From a virus (Duplodnaviria > Heunggongvirae > Uroviricota > Caudoviricetes): DNA of 35,833 bases. Both the position numbers and the translations under genes were made by a program. The DNA lies in IMG/VR virus record IMGVR_UViG_2565956762_000002, positions 1 through 35,833 of that record. One strand, 5' to 3'. The notes beneath the pieces are model-generated. The model ran no database searches and was not told the origin of the DNA. It saw only the letters and a program-made list of their open reading frames with translations. Position 1 is the stretch's first letter. The number at the start of each line of letters is the position of its first letter. Positions 1 to 35,794 of the stretch are shown in pieces.

Positions 1-1521
1 TTATTCAGGCTTTAATTTATTGATAATAGAATCTACCATTTTAATGCCTGCCTCATTGACTATGACTGAATTGACTACTCTATCAAAATAGTCTTCTATA
101 TGGTGGGAAAATAGGAAAGCAGCACTTGATGGTTTTTTGTTCTTTTCAACTGCAGATTGCAAGACTTCATGAGGCGGAATTTTAAACCTTTTGCATGATG
201 CAATGAGATATTCAAACTCTTCAAATGATAGACAAAAAATATTCTCTGTAGGGATATGATAGTTATGTTTAAACTTGTCATATATCTTATTCATCTCATC
301 TTTAGCATAAGTATTAGCTAGGATACTACCATTGCCTAAGAAAAGGTTTTTATATGTAATGCAAATGATATATGAGTTAGCCCTGAATGGAGCTATTATT
401 CGCTCATTAGAGTATATTTCTCGATTAACTTCGTGAGATTGTTCGATTGCTTTTAATACCGATTTCTTTATTTTTCCTGCAATATCCTCAGGGCGTAATG
501 TTACCATGCCTTTTTGGTGTATCTCAACGCCTTTAGCATCAATGAAAATATTTGCCTCAGTATGTGGAATGAAATAATCAACTACTTTATTATCTTTAGG
601 TAGTCGTTCTTTAAGGTATTTTTCGTTATGAAAATCAATTTCGCTTTCTTTTAGTATTAATTCCAGTGCATTTTCAAATACATTTCCAAAGCTATCCATG
701 AACTTCTCGGCATCAGTTCTTCTTAAAAGATCATATATGAACGTCTGTATGCTTGTTGAAGTCAGTTGTGTGTGTATCTGAAAATACTCTGAACCTTTTT
801 TTATTAATGGTTTTTCAAGAAAAGGTGATGATGAGTAGTATTCAAGCAAAGGTTTATCATAGGTTTTTGATTTGCAAAATGTAGATAGTTCATTGTAATT
901 TATTGATATTGCATCAAGAAATTTCTCAATGGTATTTCTAGGAATGATGTCAAATAATATAGTAAATGTATCTACATTCATTTTTCTCACGGGATGCTCT
1001 TCTGTTATGTGAGTTATTAATATGTAAGATAGCTTAAGAAAGTCTTCGATAGATACATTCGTGATAGTAAAAAAACTTGTCTTTATTTTATGGTTTTTTT
1101 CAAGTTCTGAAAATAGAAAGACTTGTCTGCTAATTGTGTTTAGAGCGTCAATTTTCTGGTAGATTCCTTGTTGGTATAGATTATTTCTAATGAAGAAATG
1201 CATGCCATTCTTCCTCTCAAGACCGATAGGAATAATGTTCAAGGTTTCATAAGTTTTTTGGAAGAGTTTTATTGCTTGATTTTTATCGAGGATTTTGAAT
1301 TTTTTATTCTTGCCAGTTACTGACGCAGACCACTTTAGACATAAATTAACAATCCAAGGCATGTGTCGTAACATGTGGATATTATCTTCAAATTTTTGTA
1401 AGTTATATTGCATACACAATTCGATAAATAAATCAGGGGAATAACCTTGGATTTCTGAACGAATAGCATCCATTCTTAACTTTGCAACCGCATCAGATTG
1501 AATATCTAATTTTTGAATCAC
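1..1521 (-). CDS. Hypothetical 506-aa protein, integrase-adjacent cargo gene
   Basis: Uninterrupted minus-strand ORF ending with TAA at 1-3. GTG start at 1519-1521 lies 13 nt downstream of the int stop and is preceded by GGAGA (revcomp of 1526-1530), suggesting co-transcription with int. Visibly AT-rich versus the phage backbone. No motif I can assign. Confidence 0.6.
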   Translation of the reverse strand: MIQKLDIQSDAVAKLRMDAIRSEIQGYSPDLFIELCMQYNLQKFEDNIHMLRHMPWIVNLCLKWSASVTGKNKKFKILDKNQAIKLFQKTYETLNIIPIGLERKNGMHFFIRNNLYQQGIYQKIDALNTISRQVFLFSELEKNHKIKTSFFTITNVSIEDFLKLSYILITHITEEHPVRKMNVDTFTILFDIIPRNTIEKFLDAISINYNELSTFCKSKTYDKPLLEYYSSSPFLEKPLIKKGSEYFQIHTQLTSTSIQTFIYDLLRRTDAEKFMDSFGNVFENALELILKESEIDFHNEKYLKERLPKDNKVVDYFIPHTEANIFIDAKGVEIHQKGMVTLRPEDIAGKIKKSVLKAIEQSHEVNREIYSNERIIAPFRANSYIICITYKNLFLGNGSILANTYAKDEMNKIYDKFKHNYHIPTENIFCLSFEEFEYLIASCKRFKIPPHEVLQSAVEKNKKPSSAAFLFSHHIEDYFDRVVNSVIVNEAGIKMVDSIINKLKPE

Positions 1522-4905: not shown

Positions 4906-5132
4906 TGGCTGATGCAATGGATCTTGTACAGCAGCGCGTTGAAGAAGAACGCCAGCGCCATATTCGTGCTGCCCGTGCCAAAACGCCGGGCGTGTCCCGC
5001 GTGCTTTGCATTGAGTGTGAAGCGCCAATTCCGCCAGCACGCCGCCGCGCCATTCCAGGTGTGCAGCTTTGCATTACCTGTCAGGAAATCGCAGAGCTGA
5101 AAGGCAAACATTACAACGGAGGTGCTGTATGA
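4905..5132 (+). CDS. TraR/DksA-family C4 zinc-finger protein
   Basis: 75 aa with CxxC-(17)-CxxC (CIECEAPIPPARRRAIPGVQLCITC), typical of phage TraR-like proteins; start overlaps the previous stop. Confidence 0.8.
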   Translation: MADAMDLVQQRVEEERQRHIRAARAKTPGVSRVLCIECEAPIPPARRRAIPGVQLCITCQEIAELKGKHYNGGAV

Positions 5133-5986
5133 GCACCATCCTGAAATGGGCGGGAAATAAAACCGCCATTATGTCCGAACTGAAAAAACACCTTCCTGCT
5201 GGCCCGCGACTGGTTGAACCTTTCGCGGGTTCCTGTGCTGTGATGATGGAGACGGATTACCCCAGCTATCTGGTTGCGGATATTAATCCTGATTTAATCA
5301 ACCTCTATAAAAAGGTTGCCGCTGATTGTGAATCGTTTATATCTCGCGCCAGAGTTTTATTTGAGATCGCAAACAGGGAGGTGGCTTATTACAACATAAG
5401 GCAGGAGTTTAATTACTCCACTGAAATTACTGATTTCATGAAAGCGGTATATTTCCTGTATCTCAATCGTCACGGTTACCGTGGTTTATGTCGCTATAAC
5501 AAGAGCGGGCATTTCAACATTCCCTACGGTAATTATAAAAATCCGTATTTCCCTGAAAAAGAAATTCGCGCATTTGCAGAAAAAACCCAGCGGGCAACGT
5601 TTATTTGCGCCAGCTTTGATGAAACGCTGGCGATGTTGAAGGCGGGGGATGTGGTGTATTGCGATCCGCCGTATGACGGCACGTTTTCCGGTTATCACAC
5701 TGACGGCTTCACTGAAGATGACCAGTATCACCTGGCATCCGTTCTTGAACATCGGTCATCAGAAGGACATCCGGTCATTGTTTCTAACAGTGACACATCC
5801 CTGATCCGTTCGCTGTATCGCAATTTTACTCACCACTACATCAAGGCAAAACGCAACATCGGTGTGGCAGCTGGAGAGGGTAAATCAGCAACAGAAATCA
5901 TTGCTGTTTCCGGGCCGCGCTGCTGGGTGGGATTTGATTATTCGCGTGGCGTGGACAGTTCTGCCGTGTACGGAGTACGTGCATGA
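5129..5986 (+). CDS. dam: DNA adenine methyltransferase (Dam-like, N6-A MTase)
   Basis: N-terminal SAM motif region LKWAGNK, FAGSCAV and catalytic DPPY ([10 protein letters not shown]). Start chosen at ATG 5129 ([11 protein letters not shown]) rather than the upstream in-frame 5069. Confidence 0.9.
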
Positions 5987-8550: not shown

Positions 8551-8739
8551 ATGCAGGACTATTTTTTGGAGTCTTTGAAGCTCCAGCGCATTGATTTTTT
8601 TCTTAAGCTTGTAGCGGCTAGTGAGTGTAGTGATGAAGAGAAGGGGCTGGCTTTGCAGTGGGTTTCTGAACTGACAGATGAACTCATGGCAAAAATCAGA
8701 ACTCACGAATACAACCGCTCAATGGATGTCATCAGCTGA
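8551..8739 (+). CDS. Small hypothetical protein, possible Tum-like antirepressor N-terminal part
   Basis: ATG at 8551 preceded by strong RBS AGGAGG; 62 aa; immediately downstream of the LexA box. Confidence 0.5.
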   Translation: MQDYFLESLKLQRIDFFLKLVAASECSDEEKGLALQWVSELTDELMAKIRTHEYNRSMDVIS

Positions 8740-8749
8740 GGTGACTTTT

Positions 8750-8983
8750 ATGCGCATTGAAATAATGATCGATAAAGAGCAGAAGATTAGCCAGTCTACC
8801 CTGGACGCCCTTGAATCCGAGCTTTACCGCAATCTGCGCCCCCTGTATCCCAAGACGGCGATCCGCATTCGCAAAGGCAGTGCCAACGGTATCGAGTTGA
8901 CCGGCTTAAAACTTGATGAGGATAAGCAGCGGGTAATGGAAATTATGCAGAAGGTGTGGGAAGACGACAGCTGGCTGCATTAA
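8750..8983 (+). CDS. DinI-family protein
   Basis: MRIEIMIDK ... QRVMEIMQKVWEDDSWL resembles DinI; the frame is open upstream to 8678, overlapping the preceding ORF. Confidence 0.75.
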   Translation: MRIEIMIDKEQKISQSTLDALESELYRNLRPLYPKTAIRIRKGSANGIELTGLKLDEDKQRVMEIMQKVWEDDSWLH

Positions 8984-9292: not shown

Positions 9293-10372
9293 GTGGCGTT
9301 ATCAGATGCGTTAATTACAGTAAATCAAGCCGAACGGGGCGGTGAAAACGCGTTGAGAGGCTTTTCATATCAAGCCTCTTGGGGGATAAATTATTTACTT
9401 GAGAAACAAAAAGAAAAGGAGAAATATTTATTTCTATTTGAATATCATGACGATATTCTTGTATTGAATTCATCTGTTTCTCCGACTAGTGCTGAGTTTA
9501 TCCAAGTTAAAACAAAAAAAGATGGTAAATGGACACTCGCAGCAATAGTGAACGCAACAAAAGCTAAACCTAAATCATTTGTTGCAAAACTATATGACCA
9601 TTTCTATCAATTCGTTGGTCACGAAATTTATATGGTTCTGTTATCGAATGCTGGATTCGATTTCTTAAATGATAATAACGAAAAAGGTAGTGATCTTAAT
9701 AATGAGCATAAGGAAATTATAATTAGTAAGGTTCAAGAGCAGCTAAATACTAAAAAAGAAGTTCCTCTTGATAAAATAAAATTTAAAACATCTGATCTTA
9801 GTTTGTTAGATCCTAACTCACATTTATACGGGAAAGTTGCAGTTTTTTTGAATTCTTACTTTGGGGATGATCATGGTATTAATTCAACAGCATTCACTAA
9901 ATTATTAATCAATAAATGTAATGAGAAGGTTAGTGTTGCTTCTAGTGATATCAAAACTTTTGAAGATTTAGTACTAAAGAAAGGTATATCTTCAGAATTT
10001 GTAACTGATTTATTATCTGGACTCATTGCAAGCATAAAAATAACGCCAAAATGGGAACAGGTTTGTATGTTGCTTGGTACTTTCTCAGATCCTTATGAGG
10101 GGATTAAATTACAATCAGTTTTTACACGCATATCAATAAAAGTGCTCAATGTCAATTCAATATACTATCTTTATTTTCTGGAATTTCAATCGGCTCTAAA
10201 GATTATAGAGCATTATCGTGAGATACCTGTTCGAGACCTCTTCTTTACACTCGAAAAAACAATTGCAGCGGGGGGCGGGGATTTCTCTTTATTAAATCAA
10301 GAAGAGAAATTTATGATTGCTATATATGCAATTATAAAGTTGACTTTTGAGGATGTTTCTTATGAAGAATAA
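9293..10372 (+). CDS. Candidate defense effector: predicted PD-(D/E)xK-like (Cap4/DUF4297-like) nuclease
   Basis: 359-aa ORF with GTG start at 9293 in an AT-rich island. N-terminal motifs RGFSYQASW ... EYHDDILVL ... EFIQVKTKK resemble a restriction-endonuclease-like D...(E/Q)xK core. Confidence 0.7.
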   Translation: MALSDALITVNQAERGGENALRGFSYQASWGINYLLEKQKEKEKYLFLFEYHDDILVLNSSVSPTSAEFIQVKTKKDGKWTLAAIVNATKAKPKSFVAKLYDHFYQFVGHEIYMVLLSNAGFDFLNDNNEKGSDLNNEHKEIIISKVQEQLNTKKEVPLDKIKFKTSDLSLLDPNSHLYGKVAVFLNSYFGDDHGINSTAFTKLLINKCNEKVSVASSDIKTFEDLVLKKGISSEFVTDLLSGLIASIKITPKWEQVCMLLGTFSDPYEGIKLQSVFTRISIKVLNVNSIYYLYFLEFQSALKIIEHYREIPVRDLFFTLEKTIAAGGGDFSLLNQEEKFMIAIYAIIKLTFEDVSYEE

Positions 10373-12020
10373 CGTTAAATTTAAAAATATAAAAATACTC
10401 TCATTAAGAGACAGAAAAGCTTTTTCTTATGAGTTTTCAGAAGGGGTTAACTTCATATATGGTACAAATGATGTTGGTAAATCAAGCCTGATTAAAAGTC
10501 TTTATTACACATTAGGTGGAGATTTAAGGCTTGATGATGCTTGGAAATCAGATGATATAGTTACACTGGTGGAAATTAATAACGGGGAAAATGATTTTAT
10601 TTTTTTACGTTATAAAAAGATTATTGGTGTCTTTGATTTGAAGAATGATGATCTAGTCGTGTATAACACGATTTCGTCATTAGCATCTCGTGTTTCAAAT
10701 ATATTTGGTTTTAAACTGGAATTACATAATAAATATACGGGTGCTACGACTCAGGCAAACCCTGCTTGTTTGTTTGCCCCATTCTTTATTGATCAGGATG
10801 AAGGATGGAAAGCGGTGATAAATTCTTTCGAAAACATGAGTATGTACTCAGAATGGCAAAAAAACATTCTTTACTATCACTCTGGAATTAAGCCAAAGGA
10901 ATATTATACAGTTCAAGGGAAAATCAAAGAAATTAAAGTTAAAATTTCAGAGTTAGATGGTTTTGTTAAGGTTCTAAAAAGAAGCAAAAGTAAGATTGAT
11001 GAATCTTTTGGCGTGGTTTTATTTGATGTTGATTTGGATTTTTATAAATCAAAGTTGGAACGTATATTAAATGAATATTCTAATTTGAATTTAGTTCAGA
11101 CAGAATATAGATTGAATCTTTTGAGGTTATATTCTAGGAAGAATTTCCTTGAGAGTGAACTCAAAGAGATAACTGCGATTATTGATAATGAATTTGAGAT
11201 TTCGAATTTTCGAGATGATAATGTTGCTTATTCAGTAAATGAATATAATTATATAAACCATAGAGATGAAATGCTCAAAAACATTGCTGTTCTTGCAGAT
11301 GAGAAAAGCAAGATTGAGGAAAATATTCCTAAATTGAATCAAAAGCTAGAAGAGTCAAGGGCTGCTTCAGAGGCGTTGCAGGCGCTGATTTTAGAAACTC
11401 AATCGGAAATAACGCTTCATGATGTTATTAAATCTGCTGCATACCATGAAATTGAATCTACTTTTATTTCACAGTTAGATGAGTTATTCGTTGAGATTGG
11501 TCGAAAAGAAGGCGAGTTGACAGAGTTACAAGAAGAATTAGAAGTATACAATGATAAGAAAAGAACTGTTAAAATAAATGACTGTTTCAAAGAGTATTTC
11601 GCTAAAGCTCTTAAAGAGCTTGGTGTCGAAAATACAAAGGTAGGTGGCCTTAGTAGTTATAATAATATTACTAAGGGCAAGACTGGTAGTCGAGGTCCTC
11701 GAGGTATATTTGCATTTCACTACGCGCTGCTTAGTGTTATGAAAAGCAACGCTTCAGTTGAGAATATGCCTATAGTAATAGACTCTCCAAAGCAACAAGA
11801 TTTGGATCCAGAGCATACGCATAAGCTTATAAAACTATGCTTGGATGGGTTTTCCCTTACAAATCAGATTATTATTGGAACTGTTGGTTATGAGAGTTTC
11901 ATGGATGGTTTTAATAGCATCAAACTTGAAAATAAATATCATCTTTTAAATGATGAACATTATGATAATGTTTATTCTCAATTAATGCCATTGTTTGAAC
12001 GGGTGATACTTTCAAGATGA
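10362..12020 (+). CDS. Candidate defense partner: SMC/Rad50-like ABC ATPase with long coiled-coil
   Basis: ATG at 10362 overlaps the upstream stop (ATGAAGAATAA); GAGGA lies upstream. N-terminal P-loop GTNDVGKSS, about 250 aa of heptad-rich coiled-coil, and a C-terminal head with MPIVIDSPKQQDLDPEHTH. Confidence 0.75.
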   Translation: MKNNVKFKNIKILSLRDRKAFSYEFSEGVNFIYGTNDVGKSSLIKSLYYTLGGDLRLDDAWKSDDIVTLVEINNGENDFIFLRYKKIIGVFDLKNDDLVVYNTISSLASRVSNIFGFKLELHNKYTGATTQANPACLFAPFFIDQDEGWKAVINSFENMSMYSEWQKNILYYHSGIKPKEYYTVQGKIKEIKVKISELDGFVKVLKRSKSKIDESFGVVLFDVDLDFYKSKLERILNEYSNLNLVQTEYRLNLLRLYSRKNFLESELKEITAIIDNEFEISNFRDDNVAYSVNEYNYINHRDEMLKNIAVLADEKSKIEENIPKLNQKLEESRAASEALQALILETQSEITLHDVIKSAAYHEIESTFISQLDELFVEIGRKEGELTELQEELEVYNDKKRTVKINDCFKEYFAKALKELGVENTKVGGLSSYNNITKGKTGSRGPRGIFAFHYALLSVMKSNASVENMPIVIDSPKQQDLDPEHTHKLIKLCLDGFSLTNQIIIGTVGYESFMDGFNSIKLENKYHLLNDEHYDNVYSQLMPLFERVILSR

Positions 12021-12026
12021 AAATAT

Positions 12027-12044
12027 GGCCTCAGAAATGAGGCC
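12027..12044. terminator. Bidirectional terminator hairpin between convergent genes
   Basis: Perfect hairpin GGCCTCA-GAAA-TGAGGCC between the cassette ATPase (+) and portal Q (-). Confidence 0.55.
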
Positions 12045-34407: not shown

Positions 34408-34581
34408 ATGGATACAAACGAACTTGGCTTAGTTAAGGCGCGTGTTGAACTGATCACCGCTATGCTCAAATGCGCAACCGCGTTTGTTGGCTTAGTTGGT
34501 GCGGTTTACGCCGTTCTTAACATGGCCTTCAACTACAACAATTTAACTCATGACAATAGAAGTTCAAAGGTGGGAAGATAA
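34408..34581 (+). CDS. Small single-TM protein (57 aa), possible RT-associated effector
   Basis: ATG at 34408 preceded by GGAGG at 8 nt; hydrophobic segment ATAFVGLVGAVYAVLNMAF; the 3' end overlaps the RT start. Confidence 0.4.
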   Translation: MDTNELGLVKARVELITAMLKCATAFVGLVGAVYAVLNMAFNYNNLTHDNRSSKVGR

Positions 34582-35323
34582 ATTTGAGATTAAGCCCGGG
34601 GTTTGGGTTTATGTCCCAAGCGTTGAGGCACGTAAAGTCGGAGGGAAGATACTTCAGGCTGTCAGAAACAAGTGGATTCCGCCACTCTATTTTTACCATC
34701 TAAGAACTGGTGGGCATCTTAAAGCTGCCAGATTACACTTAAAAAGTGATTTTTTTGCCGTTGTTGATATTAAACATTTTTTTCAGTCAACGAGCCGTAG
34801 TCGTATCACCCGTGATCTAAAGAGCTACTTCACCTATTCTCAAGCGCGGGAAATCTCAACATTTTCAACTGTAAGAAACTTGTCCCATAGTCCACATAAG
34901 CATGTCCTCCCTTTTGGTTTTGTTCAATCTCCAATACTTGCAACCCTCTGCTTAGATAAAAGTTATTTTGGTAGCTTACTACGCCGATTGAACAAACATC
35001 ATGATCTCAAGCTAAGTGTGTTTATGGATGATGTGATCATCTCGTCAAACGATTTGGCCCAATTACAAGCGGCTTACGACGAAGCACTAGTGGCAATGCG
35101 TAAATCTGGTTATCAAGCCAACATGAGTAAAACTCAGGCACCATCGTCAAAGATTAGCGTGTTTAATTTAACTTTGAGTAAGGGAGTTATGAAAGTCACA
35201 TCTCAGAAAATGAGTGACTTCCTGATTGATTTCTATTCAAGCAATTATGAGCCGCACAGAATAGGGGTCAAAAACTACGTCGAAGCTGTTAATCCAGGGC
35301 AAGCGAAACTCTTTAAGTTGTAA
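34550..35323 (+). CDS. Compact reverse transcriptase (257 aa)
   Basis: RT motifs in order: RKVGGKIL, VVDIKHFFQS, PFGFVQSPILATLCL, FMDDVIISS (YxDD-like), then SKT and KVTS. Confidence 0.75.
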   Translation: MTIEVQRWEDKFEIKPGVWVYVPSVEARKVGGKILQAVRNKWIPPLYFYHLRTGGHLKAARLHLKSDFFAVVDIKHFFQSTSRSRITRDLKSYFTYSQAREISTFSTVRNLSHSPHKHVLPFGFVQSPILATLCLDKSYFGSLLRRLNKHHDLKLSVFMDDVIISSNDLAQLQAAYDEALVAMRKSGYQANMSKTQAPSSKISVFNLTLSKGVMKVTSQKMSDFLIDFYSSNYEPHRIGVKNYVEAVNPGQAKLFKL

Positions 35324-35431: not shown

Positions 35432-35794
35432 TGGTGGAGCTGGCGGGAGTTGAACCCGCGTCCGAAATTCCTACATCCTCGGTACTACATGCTTAGTCAG
35501 TCTTTACATTCGCTTGCCAGCTGCGGACGGACACGCCACTAACAAACTAGCCTGATTAAGTTTTAACGCTTCAACCCCAGGCAGGGCTTCCACGCGATCT
35601 CTTTTGGGTTTGACCTCTCTTGATCCCCGTCCTAAGAGCGGAGGCTAGGGAGAGAGGGCTCTAAGCAGGTTATTAAGCTGCTAAAGCGTAGTTTTCGTCG
35701 TTTGCGACTATTTTTTGCGGCTTTTTACGAGGCCAACCGCCCCTCGGCATGCACCTTGGGTTTCGCAAATCCCGTCGAATCCAGAATCAGCCCC
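35432..35794 (-). ncRNA. ssrA: tmRNA (SsrA), 363 nt
   Basis: Minus strand reads GGGGCTGATTCTGGATTCGACGGG ... GGACGCGGGTTCAACTCCCGCCAGCTCCACCA, the enterobacterial ssrA 5' and 3' ends as recalled; length 363 nt. Confidence 0.95.

What the first reader, a model, noticed from the sequence alone, without database searches (positions are those of the whole stretch)
11700..11900. Atypical Walker B region in the cassette ATPase (IVIDSP rather than hhhhDE)
The only hydrophobic-stretch-plus-Asp candidate in the C-terminal head is MPIVIDSPKQQDLDPEHTH. The position normally held by the catalytic Glu after the Walker B Asp is Ser, followed by a Q-rich stretch and a His-containing segment. This could mean a hydrolysis-impaired sensor-type ATPase or a divergent motif arrangement; either would separate it from canonical SMC/RecN proteins.
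Basis: inference. Interest (0 to 1): 0.45.

Follow-up and report, generated by a model that had tools for sequence, protein, structure and literature searches.

The report
Lamassu LmuB's known deviant Walker B
The odd ATP-hydrolysis motif (Asp-Ser instead of Asp-Glu) is real, but it is the normal, already published hallmark of the LmuB sensor ATPase of a two-gene Lamassu anti-phage system, here carried as cargo by a P2-like prophage.

Summary
Observation confirmed. MPIVIDSPKQQDLDPEHTH is encoded at nt 11766-11822. IVID474 is the Walker B strand, and Ser475 (TCT, 11784-11786) sits where the catalytic Glu normally is.

The protein (10362-12020, 552 aa) is LmuB. With the overlapping upstream Cap4-nuclease gene lmuA (9293-10372) it forms a type I "short" Lamassu defence system with no LmuC. 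The cassette is AT-rich cargo in the GpA-portal hotspot of a P2-like prophage. It is 100% identical to Klebsiella phage Kp4845-2 and 99.6% identical to copies in 11 E. coli genomes.

The Walker B assignment rests on four things:
- a full-length profile match to solved type I BcLmuB (9ux7), which has PFCMDS at the same place;
- the AlphaFold2 strand and helix pattern;
- Foldseek top hits to LmuB structures, then Rad50 and SMC;
- signature-to-Walker B spacing identical to E. coli SbcC.

In 233 family representatives the Asp is invariant. The next residue is S 203, A 16, T 9, E 4, N 1. The H-loop position is never His.

Three 2025 papers already report the deviant LmuB Walker B (hhhhD[Q/S/T/E]) with slow but real ATP hydrolysis. 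Verdict: already known, an ordinary member of a known system, low interest.

The parts
9293..10372 (+). lmuA: effector with an N-terminal Cap4-type dsDNA nuclease domain (E50, D53/D54, Q71-x-K73 by eye) and a C-terminal domain
   Evidence: Pfam PF14130 Cap4_nuclease, E=1.6e-33, residues 15-212. PADLOC LmuA PDLC00243, 473 bits, full length.
10362..12020 (+). lmuB: SMC/Rad50-like ABC ATPase, 552 aa. Split head with an antiparallel coiled coil at about residues 179-419. No CxxC zinc hook.
   Evidence: PADLOC LmuB PDLC00255, 840 bits, 8-555 of the 557-aa ORF. Family profile matches solved BcLmuB 9ux7_A at E=1.2e-49 over the full length. AF2 pLDDT 86.6. Foldseek top hits are LmuB structures. ATG 10362 with a GAGGA SD.
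10461..10487 (+). Walker A / P-loop, G34-TNDV-G39-K40-S41-S42
   Evidence: N36, G39, K40 and S41 are invariant in the family. The segment aligns to the Rad50 and RecF P-loops.
10791..10808 (+). Q-loop region, D144-Q145-D146-E-G-W149
   Evidence: D144, Q145 and W149 are invariant or nearly so in 233 representatives. The region is conserved with BcLmuB (LPFYIDQDDSW) in the profile alignment. The Q-loop assignment is by analogy and is an inference.
11682..11702 (+). Signature-motif equivalent, T441-G442-S443-R-G-P446-R447 (canonical LSGGE/Q)
   Evidence: G442, S443 and R447 are invariant or nearly so. The motif sits at the N-terminus of helix 444-462. It aligns to the SGSG of BcLmuB. Ser443 is 31 residues before the Walker B Asp, the same spacing as in E. 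coli SbcC.
11769..11789 (+). Walker B, P470-I-V-I-D474, followed by Ser475-Pro476. Ser replaces the catalytic Glu. This is the finding.
   Evidence: Predicted beta-strand 471-474. D474 is invariant and S475 is present in 203 of 233 representatives. Aligns to PFCMDS of solved BcLmuB.
11793..11807 (+). D-loop region, Q478-Q479-D480-L-D482, one residue longer than in SbcC, RecN and RecF
   Evidence: Q478, Q479 and D482 are nearly invariant. D482 aligns to the D-loop Asp of P. furiosus Rad50 (weak local alignment).
11865..11885 (+). Strand Q502-IIIGT-V508, ending at the H-loop position, which is Val and not His
   Evidence: Strand 503-507. 'QlilGsv' aligns to Rad50 'QVILVSH'. The column is V 172, E 40 and never H in 233 representatives.
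12027..12044 (.). GC-rich hairpin between the convergent stops of lmuB and the portal gene; a likely terminator
   Evidence: Terminator-like site in the consensus scan. This is a pattern match only.

Best explanation
Nucleotides 9293-12020 encode a type I ('short', LmuC-less) Lamassu anti-phage system carried as cargo in the GpA-portal hotspot of a P2-like prophage.

LmuB is a Rad50/SbcC-derived ABC ATPase. In this family the catalytic Glu after the Walker B Asp is naturally replaced, here by Ser475, and the H-loop His is replaced by Val508. The ATP-binding elements are kept: the Walker A Lys, the Walker B Asp, the Q-loop Gln and the signature Ser.

By homology to the solved BcLmuAB complex, an LmuB dimer holds one LmuA monomer on its coiled coil in an inactive state and binds dsDNA ends with a head domain. 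ATP binding and slow hydrolysis by the deviant site then govern release of LmuA. Released LmuA oligomerises into an active Cap4 nuclease tetramer and degrades DNA, aborting the infection. On this reading the D-S motif makes LmuB a slow ATP-gated switch or safeguard rather than a fast motor.

Shown here: the identity of the genes, the motif assignments and their conservation. Inferred from homologs: the complex, DNA-end sensing, slow hydrolysis and LmuA release.
For: Family identity:
- PADLOC gives LmuB 840 bits and LmuA 473 bits.
- Pfam gives Cap4_nuclease at 1.6e-33.
- The family profile matches solved type I BcLmuB 9ux7_A at E=1.2e-49 end to end.
- Foldseek of the AF2 model (pLDDT 86.6) ranks 9ux7_A first (4e-24), then type II LmuB structures 9uxh, 9hqu and 9nyg, then Rad50/SMC.

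Walker B assignment:
- IVID is strand 471-474, between the signature helix 444-462 and strand 503-507.
- It aligns to PFCMDS of BcLmuB.
- Signature-Ser to Walker B Asp spacing is 31, the same as in SbcC.
- D474 is invariant; S/A/T/E/N follow it in 203/16/9/4/1 of 233 representatives.

Architecture and context:
- The two genes overlap by 11 nt, with no gene between them.
- The same Cap4 plus LmuB pair occurs in V. cholerae and Elizabethkingia homologs at 43% and 26% identity.
- The cassette lies between GPA and the portal gene, at GC 0.29-0.34 against about 0.53-0.6 in the flanks.
- This position is a documented P2 defence hotspot (PMC13586616).

Mechanism, from the literature:
[quoted passage not shown] Walker A K-to-A abolishes this. 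The complex is LmuB2:LmuA1, binds DNA ends, and releases LmuA, which forms tetramers (10.1101/2025.06.23.660979).
- Short-Lamassu Walker B is hhhhD[Q/S/T/E], and hydrolysis is 'likely ... at a slow rate' (PMC12663957).
- SalEnt LmuACB hydrolyses about 1 ATP per minute with DNA (10.1101/2025.03.14.643221).
Against: - No experiment exists on this protein. It is only 19% identical to BcLmuB in the structural alignment.
- It lacks the CxxC zinc hook that BcLmuB uses at the dimerisation apex, so dimer geometry could differ.
- Reports disagree on the rate: 'moderate' for BcLmuAB against about 1 per minute for SalEnt.
- Whether hydrolysis, as opposed to ATP binding and head engagement, matters for defence is stated to be unresolved.
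- The C-terminal head could not be aligned by sequence to E. coli SbcC, RecF or RecN. The link to canonical motifs therefore rests on BcLmuB, a weak Rad50 local alignment, the predicted fold and motif spacing.
Confidence: 0.85

Rival explanations
1. LmuB here is a pure ATP-binding switch. With Ser at the catalytic-base position and Val at the H-loop, both composite sites of the homodimer are non-hydrolytic, like the degenerate site 1 of CFTR. ATP-driven head engagement alone would release LmuA, and hydrolysis would be irrelevant.
For: - CFTR NBD1 has the same D-S substitution (S573) at a site where hydrolysis is 'essentially absent' (PMC8640958).
- 16 of 233 family members carry Ala at this position, and none has an H-loop His.
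- The Gruber-lab preprint says head engagement 'might be sufficient' for unlocking.
Against: - BcLmuAB, which has the same D-S, shows Walker A-dependent ATP hydrolysis.
- ATPgammaS does not reproduce the effect of ATP on nuclease regulation.
Confidence: 0.2
2. Catalysis is rescued by a relocated catalytic residue. One of the invariant polar residues peculiar to this family (D146 next to the Q-loop Gln, Q478/Q479 in the extended D-loop, or the E/D/H three residues after the H-loop position) would activate the water, so the site would be a rearranged but competent ATPase.
For: - D144-Q145-D146, Q478, Q479 and Q502 are invariant or nearly so in 233 representatives, while the residue after the Walker B Asp tolerates S, A, T, N and E.
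- The D-loop is one residue longer than in SbcC, RecN and RecF.
- BcLmuAB is reported to hydrolyse at a rate similar to Smc-ScpAB.
Against: - No coordinates were available to measure distances.
- BcLmuB lacks the KQQ motif (it has DSFIKNE) yet hydrolyses ATP.
- Type II LmuB with D-Q is very slow.
Confidence: 0.1
3. The Walker B is mis-assigned. The true motif would be elsewhere (LCLD495 or LLND531-E532), with a functional acidic pair.
For: Both strings exist in the C-terminal head.
Against: - Both lie in predicted helices, 483-497 and 531-551, not in a strand.
- D495 is Asp in only 94 of 233 representatives, and position 531 is E70/K32/S25 and others.
- LLNDE lies after the H-loop strand, which is the wrong order for an ABC fold.
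- BcLmuB aligns its DS to IVIDS.
Confidence: 0.02
4. The cassette is a decaying relic, and the Ser is a disabling mutation in an inactive gene.
For: None beyond the non-canonical residue.
Against: - Both ORFs are intact and translationally coupled.
- Ser is conserved in 203 of 233 representatives across phyla.
- The cassette is 99-100% conserved in Klebsiella phages and in 11 E. coli genomes.
Confidence: 0.02

Closest known systems
Type I Lamassu LmuAB of Bacillus cellulasensis NIO-1130 (BcLmuAB; PDB 9ux7/9ux8; Doron 2018; Li et al. bioRxiv 10.1101/2025.06.23.660979)
   Same: - Two-gene lmuA (Cap4 nuclease) plus lmuB operon without lmuC.
- LmuB of about 555 aa with the same domain order.
- Walker B Asp followed by Ser (PFCMDS against PIVIDS).
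- No His at the H-loop position (…SIV… against …GTV…).
- Full-length profile match at E=1e-49 and best Foldseek hit.
   Different: - Only about 19% identity.
- BcLmuB has a CQYC zinc hook, and this protein has none.
- BcLmuB lacks the invariant SPKQQDxD and TGSRxPR strings of this subfamily.
- Gram-positive chromosome against an enterobacterial P2-like prophage.
Type II Lamassu / DdmABC (VcLmuACB, SalEnt LmuACB; PDB 9uxh, 9hqu, 9nyg)
   Same: - Rad50-like LmuB with a deviant Walker B.
- Cap4 LmuA sequestered as a monomer and released to form a tetramer.
- DNA-end sensing.
- Structural hits at 1e-12 to 4e-16.
   Different: - Has LmuC.
- LmuB is about 650 aa, with Gln rather than Ser after the Walker B Asp.
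- Only a weak sequence match to our profile, E=3e-7.
Rad50/SbcC, RecN, SMC (canonical SMC-like ABC ATPases)
   Same: - Fold, Walker A, Q-loop Gln, signature Ser, and Walker B strand with Asp.
- The order and spacing of motifs match: signature Ser to Walker B Asp is 31 residues in both SbcC and this LmuB.
   Different: - Catalytic Glu replaced by Ser.
- H-loop His replaced by Val.
- Signature LSGGE replaced by TGSRGPR.
- D-loop one residue longer.
- Coiled coil much shorter, with no zinc hook or hinge.
CFTR NBD1 degenerate ATP site (Walker B D572-S573)
   Same: The same Asp-Ser-Pro replacement of the catalytic Glu. In CFTR that site binds ATP with essentially no hydrolysis (PMC8640958).
   Different: An unrelated ABC transporter. 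In CFTR the degenerate site pairs with a competent site 2, whereas an LmuB homodimer would have two identical deviant sites. This is an analogy only.

Membership tests
Lamassu type I (LmuA + LmuB, no LmuC) | LmuB: SMC/Rad50-like ABC ATPase with a split head and an intervening coiled coil | tested here: met
   PADLOC LmuB at 840 bits. Profile match to 9ux7_A LmuB at E=1.2e-49. AF2 helices 179-419 lie between the N- and C-terminal head halves. Foldseek ranks LmuB, then Rad50/SMC.
Lamassu type I (LmuA + LmuB, no LmuC) | LmuA: N-terminal effector domain (Cap4/DUF4297 nuclease) plus a C-terminal domain, encoded immediately upstream | tested here: met
   PF14130 at E=1.6e-33 over residues 15-212 of 359. 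PADLOC LmuA at 473 bits. An 11-nt overlap with lmuB.
Lamassu type I (LmuA + LmuB, no LmuC) | Absence of an lmuC gene between or beside lmuA and lmuB | tested here: met
   The genes overlap. Upstream is a 309-nt non-coding stretch and then a DinI-like gene. Downstream is a 40-nt spacer and then the portal gene. Homologs have the same layout.
Lamassu type I (LmuA + LmuB, no LmuC) | Deviant Walker B, hhhhD[Q/S/T/E], as reported for short Lamassu LmuB | tested here: met
   IVID-S. S is present in 203 of 233 representatives. The published consensus is in PMC12663957.
Lamassu type I (LmuA + LmuB, no LmuC) | Anti-phage or abortive-infection activity; LmuB2:LmuA1 complex; activation by DNA ends | not testable with these tools
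   Known only for BcLmuAB and the type II systems.
Lamassu type I (LmuA + LmuB, no LmuC) | CxxC zinc hook at the coiled-coil apex (present in BcLmuB; variable and not strictly defining in short Lamassu) | tested here: not met
   There is no CxxC anywhere in the protein. It is absent in 71 of 233 representatives (the subclade with 35% or more identity to this protein) and present once in 162. PMC12663957 reports zero, one or two copies in short LmuB.
Canonical SMC/Rad50/RecN ABC ATPase | Walker A, GxxxxGK[ST] | tested here: met
   G34-TNDV-GKSS, with K40 invariant.
Canonical SMC/Rad50/RecN ABC ATPase | Walker B hhhhDE with a catalytic Glu | tested here: not met
   D474-S475. Glu occurs in only 4 of 233 representatives.
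Canonical SMC/Rad50/RecN ABC ATPase | H-loop histidine after the strand that follows the D-loop helix | tested here: not met
   Val508. The column is never His in 233 representatives.
Canonical SMC/Rad50/RecN ABC ATPase | Signature motif LSGG[EQ] | tested here: inconclusive
   Only G442-S443 are kept (TGSRGPR). Position and spacing fit. Function in head engagement was not tested.
   No PF12532 hit at E<=0.1. Only sub-threshold SMC_N, AAA_23 and AAA_15 matches at the N-terminus. The type II LmuB chain 9hqu carries the DUF3732 name.
OLD / AAA_15 / Gabija GajA ATPases | Full-length match to the AAA_15 or GajA models, and a Toprim partner domain | tested here: not met
   AAA_15 at E=0.099, 12.7 bits against a cut-off of 32.1. 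GajA matches at about 20 bits cover the P-loop segment only. There is no Toprim domain.

The most novel reading that the evidence does not exclude
The type I LmuB family lacks both classical catalytic residues. The base position is S, A, T or N in 229 of 233 representatives, and the H-loop His is absent in all 233. Yet its one characterised member turns over ATP.

The family may therefore use an undescribed catalytic arrangement. The candidates are its own invariant residues: D146 beside the Q-loop Gln, and the Q478-Q479 pair of the lengthened D-loop. Alternatively, in the zinc-hook-less enterobacterial subclade, LmuB may work as a purely nucleotide-binding latch.

The main texts of the three structure papers do not discuss the H-, Q- or D-loops.
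Probability: 0.12. Interest if true: 0.45.

Novelty: already known. Interest (0 to 1): 0.12.

Why it matters
It matters little as a discovery. The deviant Walker B of LmuB is published, and this cassette is detected by standard defence-system models.

The annotation is still useful. RefSeq labels these genes only 'AAA family ATPase' or 'hypothetical protein' and 'dsDNA nuclease domain-containing protein'. They can be named lmuB and lmuA of a type I Lamassu carried by a P2-like prophage that circulates in Klebsiella and E. coli.

There is one modest addition. Across 233 representatives of this LmuB family the catalytic-base position tolerates Ser, Ala, Thr and Asn, and the H-loop His is always absent. 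The field states that it is unresolved whether hydrolysis, or only ATP binding, is needed for Lamassu activation, and this pattern bears on that question. It also supplies natural S/A/E variants to test.

Tried and rejected
1. Single-sequence phmmer of LmuB against PDB sequences matched only the Rad50/RecF P-loop end. The family profile was needed to reach BcLmuB.
2. A profile of the C-terminal head alone (A2) found nothing in the PDB at E<=10.
3. hhalign of the family profile against E. coli SbcC and RecF, and local hmmsearch --max against SbcC, RecF and RecN, aligned only the Walker A end and coiled-coil noise. No residue-level sequence alignment of the C-terminal head to these canonical proteins was obtained. 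Motif spacing was compared instead.
4. Alternative Walker B candidates LCLD495 and LLND531-E532 were rejected. They are helical, not conserved, and in the wrong order.
5. LmuA had no PDB sequence hit by phmmer. Its identity rests on Pfam and PADLOC.
6. Model coordinates are not exposed by the tools, so distances from D146, Q478 and Q479 to the nucleotide site could not be measured.
7. OLD/AAA_15, GajA and DUF3732 membership was rejected on scores.
8. Rousset et al. 2022 (PMC9122126) does not name Lamassu among the P2 hotspot systems.
Full report
**What is at the coordinates.** The + strand ORF 10347-12020 contains MPIVIDSPKQQDLDPEHTH. The functional start is ATG 10362. It has a GAGGA Shine-Dalgarno 8 nt upstream and overlaps the stop codon of the upstream gene by 11 nt. 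This gives a 552-aa protein identical to database cluster P0001. In that numbering the peptide is residues 469-487 (nt 11766-11822), Asp474 is GAC 11781-11783 and Ser475 is TCT 11784-11786.

**What the genes are.**
- PADLOC models identify the 552-aa protein as LmuB (PDLC00255, 840 bits, nearly end to end). They identify the overlapping upstream 359-aa protein (9293-10372) as LmuA (PDLC00243, 473 bits).
- Pfam finds a Cap4 dsDNA-nuclease domain in LmuA (E=1.6e-33). In LmuB it finds only sub-threshold SMC_N, AAA_23 and AAA_15 matches at the P-loop end, and no DUF3732.
- There is no room for an lmuC gene. lmuA and lmuB overlap. Upstream is about 300 nt of non-coding DNA and a DinI-like gene. Downstream are 40 nt with a hairpin, then the convergent portal gene.
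- This is the two-gene 'type I' architecture, called clade S of the short Lamassu systems in PMC12663957.
- Homologs from V. cholerae (43% identity) and Elizabethkingia (26%) show the same Cap4-nuclease plus LmuB pair.

**Genomic setting.**
- The window is a P2/186-like prophage. It carries an integrase, a CI repressor, a Dam methylase, GPA, portal, terminase, GPO and a P2 capsid protein. A tmRNA gene sits at the right edge.
- The cassette lies between GPA and the portal gene. This is the documented main defence hotspot of P2-like phages (PMC13586616).
- It is compositionally foreign, at GC 0.29-0.34 against about 0.53-0.6 in the flanks.
- The 3.1-kb cassette is 100% identical in a set of 35.6-kb Klebsiella phage records (Kp4845-2 and others). 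It is 98.9-99.6% identical over its full length in 11 of 5,426 complete E. coli genomes, where RefSeq calls the genes only 'AAA family ATPase' or 'hypothetical protein' and 'dsDNA nuclease domain-containing protein'.

**Is IVID-S really the Walker B?** Four lines of evidence agree.
1. A profile of 62 family members matches the solved type I LmuB of Bacillus cellulasensis (9ux7_A) over the full length at E=1.2e-49. It aligns 'llPiVIDSP' to 'IIPFCMDSF', so the solved relative also has Asp-Ser. The same search weakly aligns the segment after the motif to P. furiosus Rad50. The family's 'lD' pairs with the Rad50 D-loop LD, and 'QlilGsv' pairs with 'QVILVSH'.
2. An AlphaFold2 model (pLDDT 86.6, pTM 0.70) puts IVID in beta-strand 471-474. 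That strand is preceded by helix 444-462, which starts at G442-S443, the signature position. It is followed by helix 483-497 and strand 503-507, which is the canonical ABC order.
3. Foldseek against the PDB ranks 9ux7_A first (4e-24), then type II LmuB structures (9uxh, 9hqu, 9nyg) and YydD, then Rad50, SMC, SbcC and RecN.
4. Motif spacing fits. Signature Ser to Walker B Asp is 31 residues in this protein and in E. coli SbcC (27 in RecN, 32 in RecF). Walker B Asp to D-loop Asp is 8 against 7. Walker B Asp to the H-loop position is 34 against 30-33.

The two other candidate strings in the head are LCLD495 and LLND531-E532. Both lie in predicted helices, are poorly conserved, and in the second case come after the H-loop strand.

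**Conservation.**
- In 91 word-index homologs down to 23% identity the string P-[IV]-V-I-D-S-P-K-Q-Q-D-x-D is almost invariant (S 90, T 1).
- An exhaustive profile search of 1.84 billion representatives finds 858 clusters at E<=1e-30.
- In 233 aligned representatives D474 is invariant and the following residue is S 203, A 16, T 9, E 4, N 1.
- The H-loop column is V 172 or E 40 and never His.
- K40, D144-Q145-D146, W149, G442-S443, R447, Q478, Q479 and Q502 are invariant or nearly so.
- The protein thus keeps the nucleotide-binding and head-engagement elements, while both classical catalytic residues are systematically absent. Natural Ala variants indicate that the side chain after the Walker B Asp is not a catalytic base in this family. 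That last point is an inference.

**What is already known.** Three 2025 studies describe exactly this feature.
- PMC12663957 states that short-Lamassu LmuB has Walker B hhhhD[Q/S/T/E], against hhhhDD in long Lamassu. [quoted passage not shown]
- 10.1101/2025.03.14.643221 notes the Glu-to-Gln variant Walker B. It measures about 1 ATP per minute with DNA for the Salmonella LmuACB and calls the complexes 'active if inefficient ATP hydrolases'. It points out that whether hydrolysis matters for defence is unresolved.
- 10.1101/2025.06.23.660979 reports the following for type I BcLmuAB, which has the same D-S as here:
  - moderate ATPase activity, abolished by Walker A K37A;
  - an LmuB2:LmuA1 complex with LmuA bound on the coiled coil;
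  - binding of dsDNA ends by one LmuB head;
  - release of LmuA to form the active tetramer.

It is a family trait rather than a peculiarity of this gene, and for the closest D-S relative hydrolysis is reduced rather than absent.

**Most likely mechanism.** The gene identities and motifs are shown here. The mechanism is inferred from homologs.
- An LmuB dimer sequesters one LmuA monomer.
- A head domain binds a free dsDNA end produced during phage replication.
- ATP binding and head engagement, followed by slow hydrolysis at the D-S site, control dissociation of LmuA.
- LmuA then tetramerises into an active Cap4 nuclease that degrades DNA and aborts infection.

**Rivals.**
- A non-hydrolytic latch, by analogy with CFTR NBD1, which has the same D-S-P at a site where hydrolysis is essentially absent (PMC8640958).
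- Rescue by a relocated catalytic residue such as D146 or Q478/Q479.

Neither can be excluded without biochemistry or coordinates.

**Differences from the characterised type I system.**
- Identity to BcLmuB is low, about 19%.
- This protein and its subclade, the 71 representatives with 35% or more identity to it, have no CxxC zinc hook. The other 162 representatives have one CPxC at about residue 294.
- Variable hook copy number in short LmuB is itself published.
- The main texts of the three papers do not discuss the H-, Q- or D-loops. The consistent loss of the H-loop His is a small addition, not a new kind of thing.

**Verdict.** The feature is the known deviant Walker B of LmuB in an ordinary type I Lamassu cassette carried by a P2-like prophage. 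Novelty: already known. Interest: low.

Noticed in passing
window 34550-35323 (+), next to the tmRNA gene at 35432-35794 (-): A 257-aa reverse transcriptase (Pfam RVT_1, 4e-21; best PADLOC match is retron-type RT_VI at 62 bits) sits at the right end of the prophage, just inside the tmRNA gene that probably marks the attachment site. It may be a second defence cargo, a retron or a DRT-like system. No Rfam msr/msd family reached threshold.
   Followed up: partly
window 1-1521 (-): A 506-aa ORF runs off the left edge of the window, outside the integrase gene (1534-2547). It has no Pfam or PADLOC match. It could be host DNA or cargo between the integrase and att.
   Followed up: partly
LmuB residues about 275-290 (nt about 11185-11230) and homologs P0001-P0233: The coiled-coil apex has no CxxC zinc hook in this protein or in the 71 representatives of its subclade. 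The 162 more distant family members keep one CPxC at about residue 294. The apex is the only very low-confidence stretch of the AF2 model (residues 280-282, pLDDT below 50). How the hook-less LmuB dimerises is open.
   Followed up: partly
LmuB family alignment (proteins P0112, P0147, P0152, P0156): Four of 233 representatives carry a canonical Asp-Glu Walker B (…IDEPNQQGQD…) while still lacking the H-loop His. Sixteen carry Asp-Ala. These natural variants could be used to test whether hydrolysis rate matters.
   Followed up: no
window 5069-5986 (+) and 8678-8983 (+): A D12-class Dam methyltransferase gene lies immediately upstream of, and overlapping, the GPA replication gene. A DinI-like gene lies between GPA and the Lamassu cassette. 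Both are accessory genes of the prophage.
   Followed up: no
Foldseek hit 9a6c_A: The third-best structural match to the LmuB model is the B. subtilis YydD-YydB integrative model (E=1e-14). It ranks above most type II LmuB chains, which suggests YydD is a Lamassu-like SMC ATPase.
   Followed up: no
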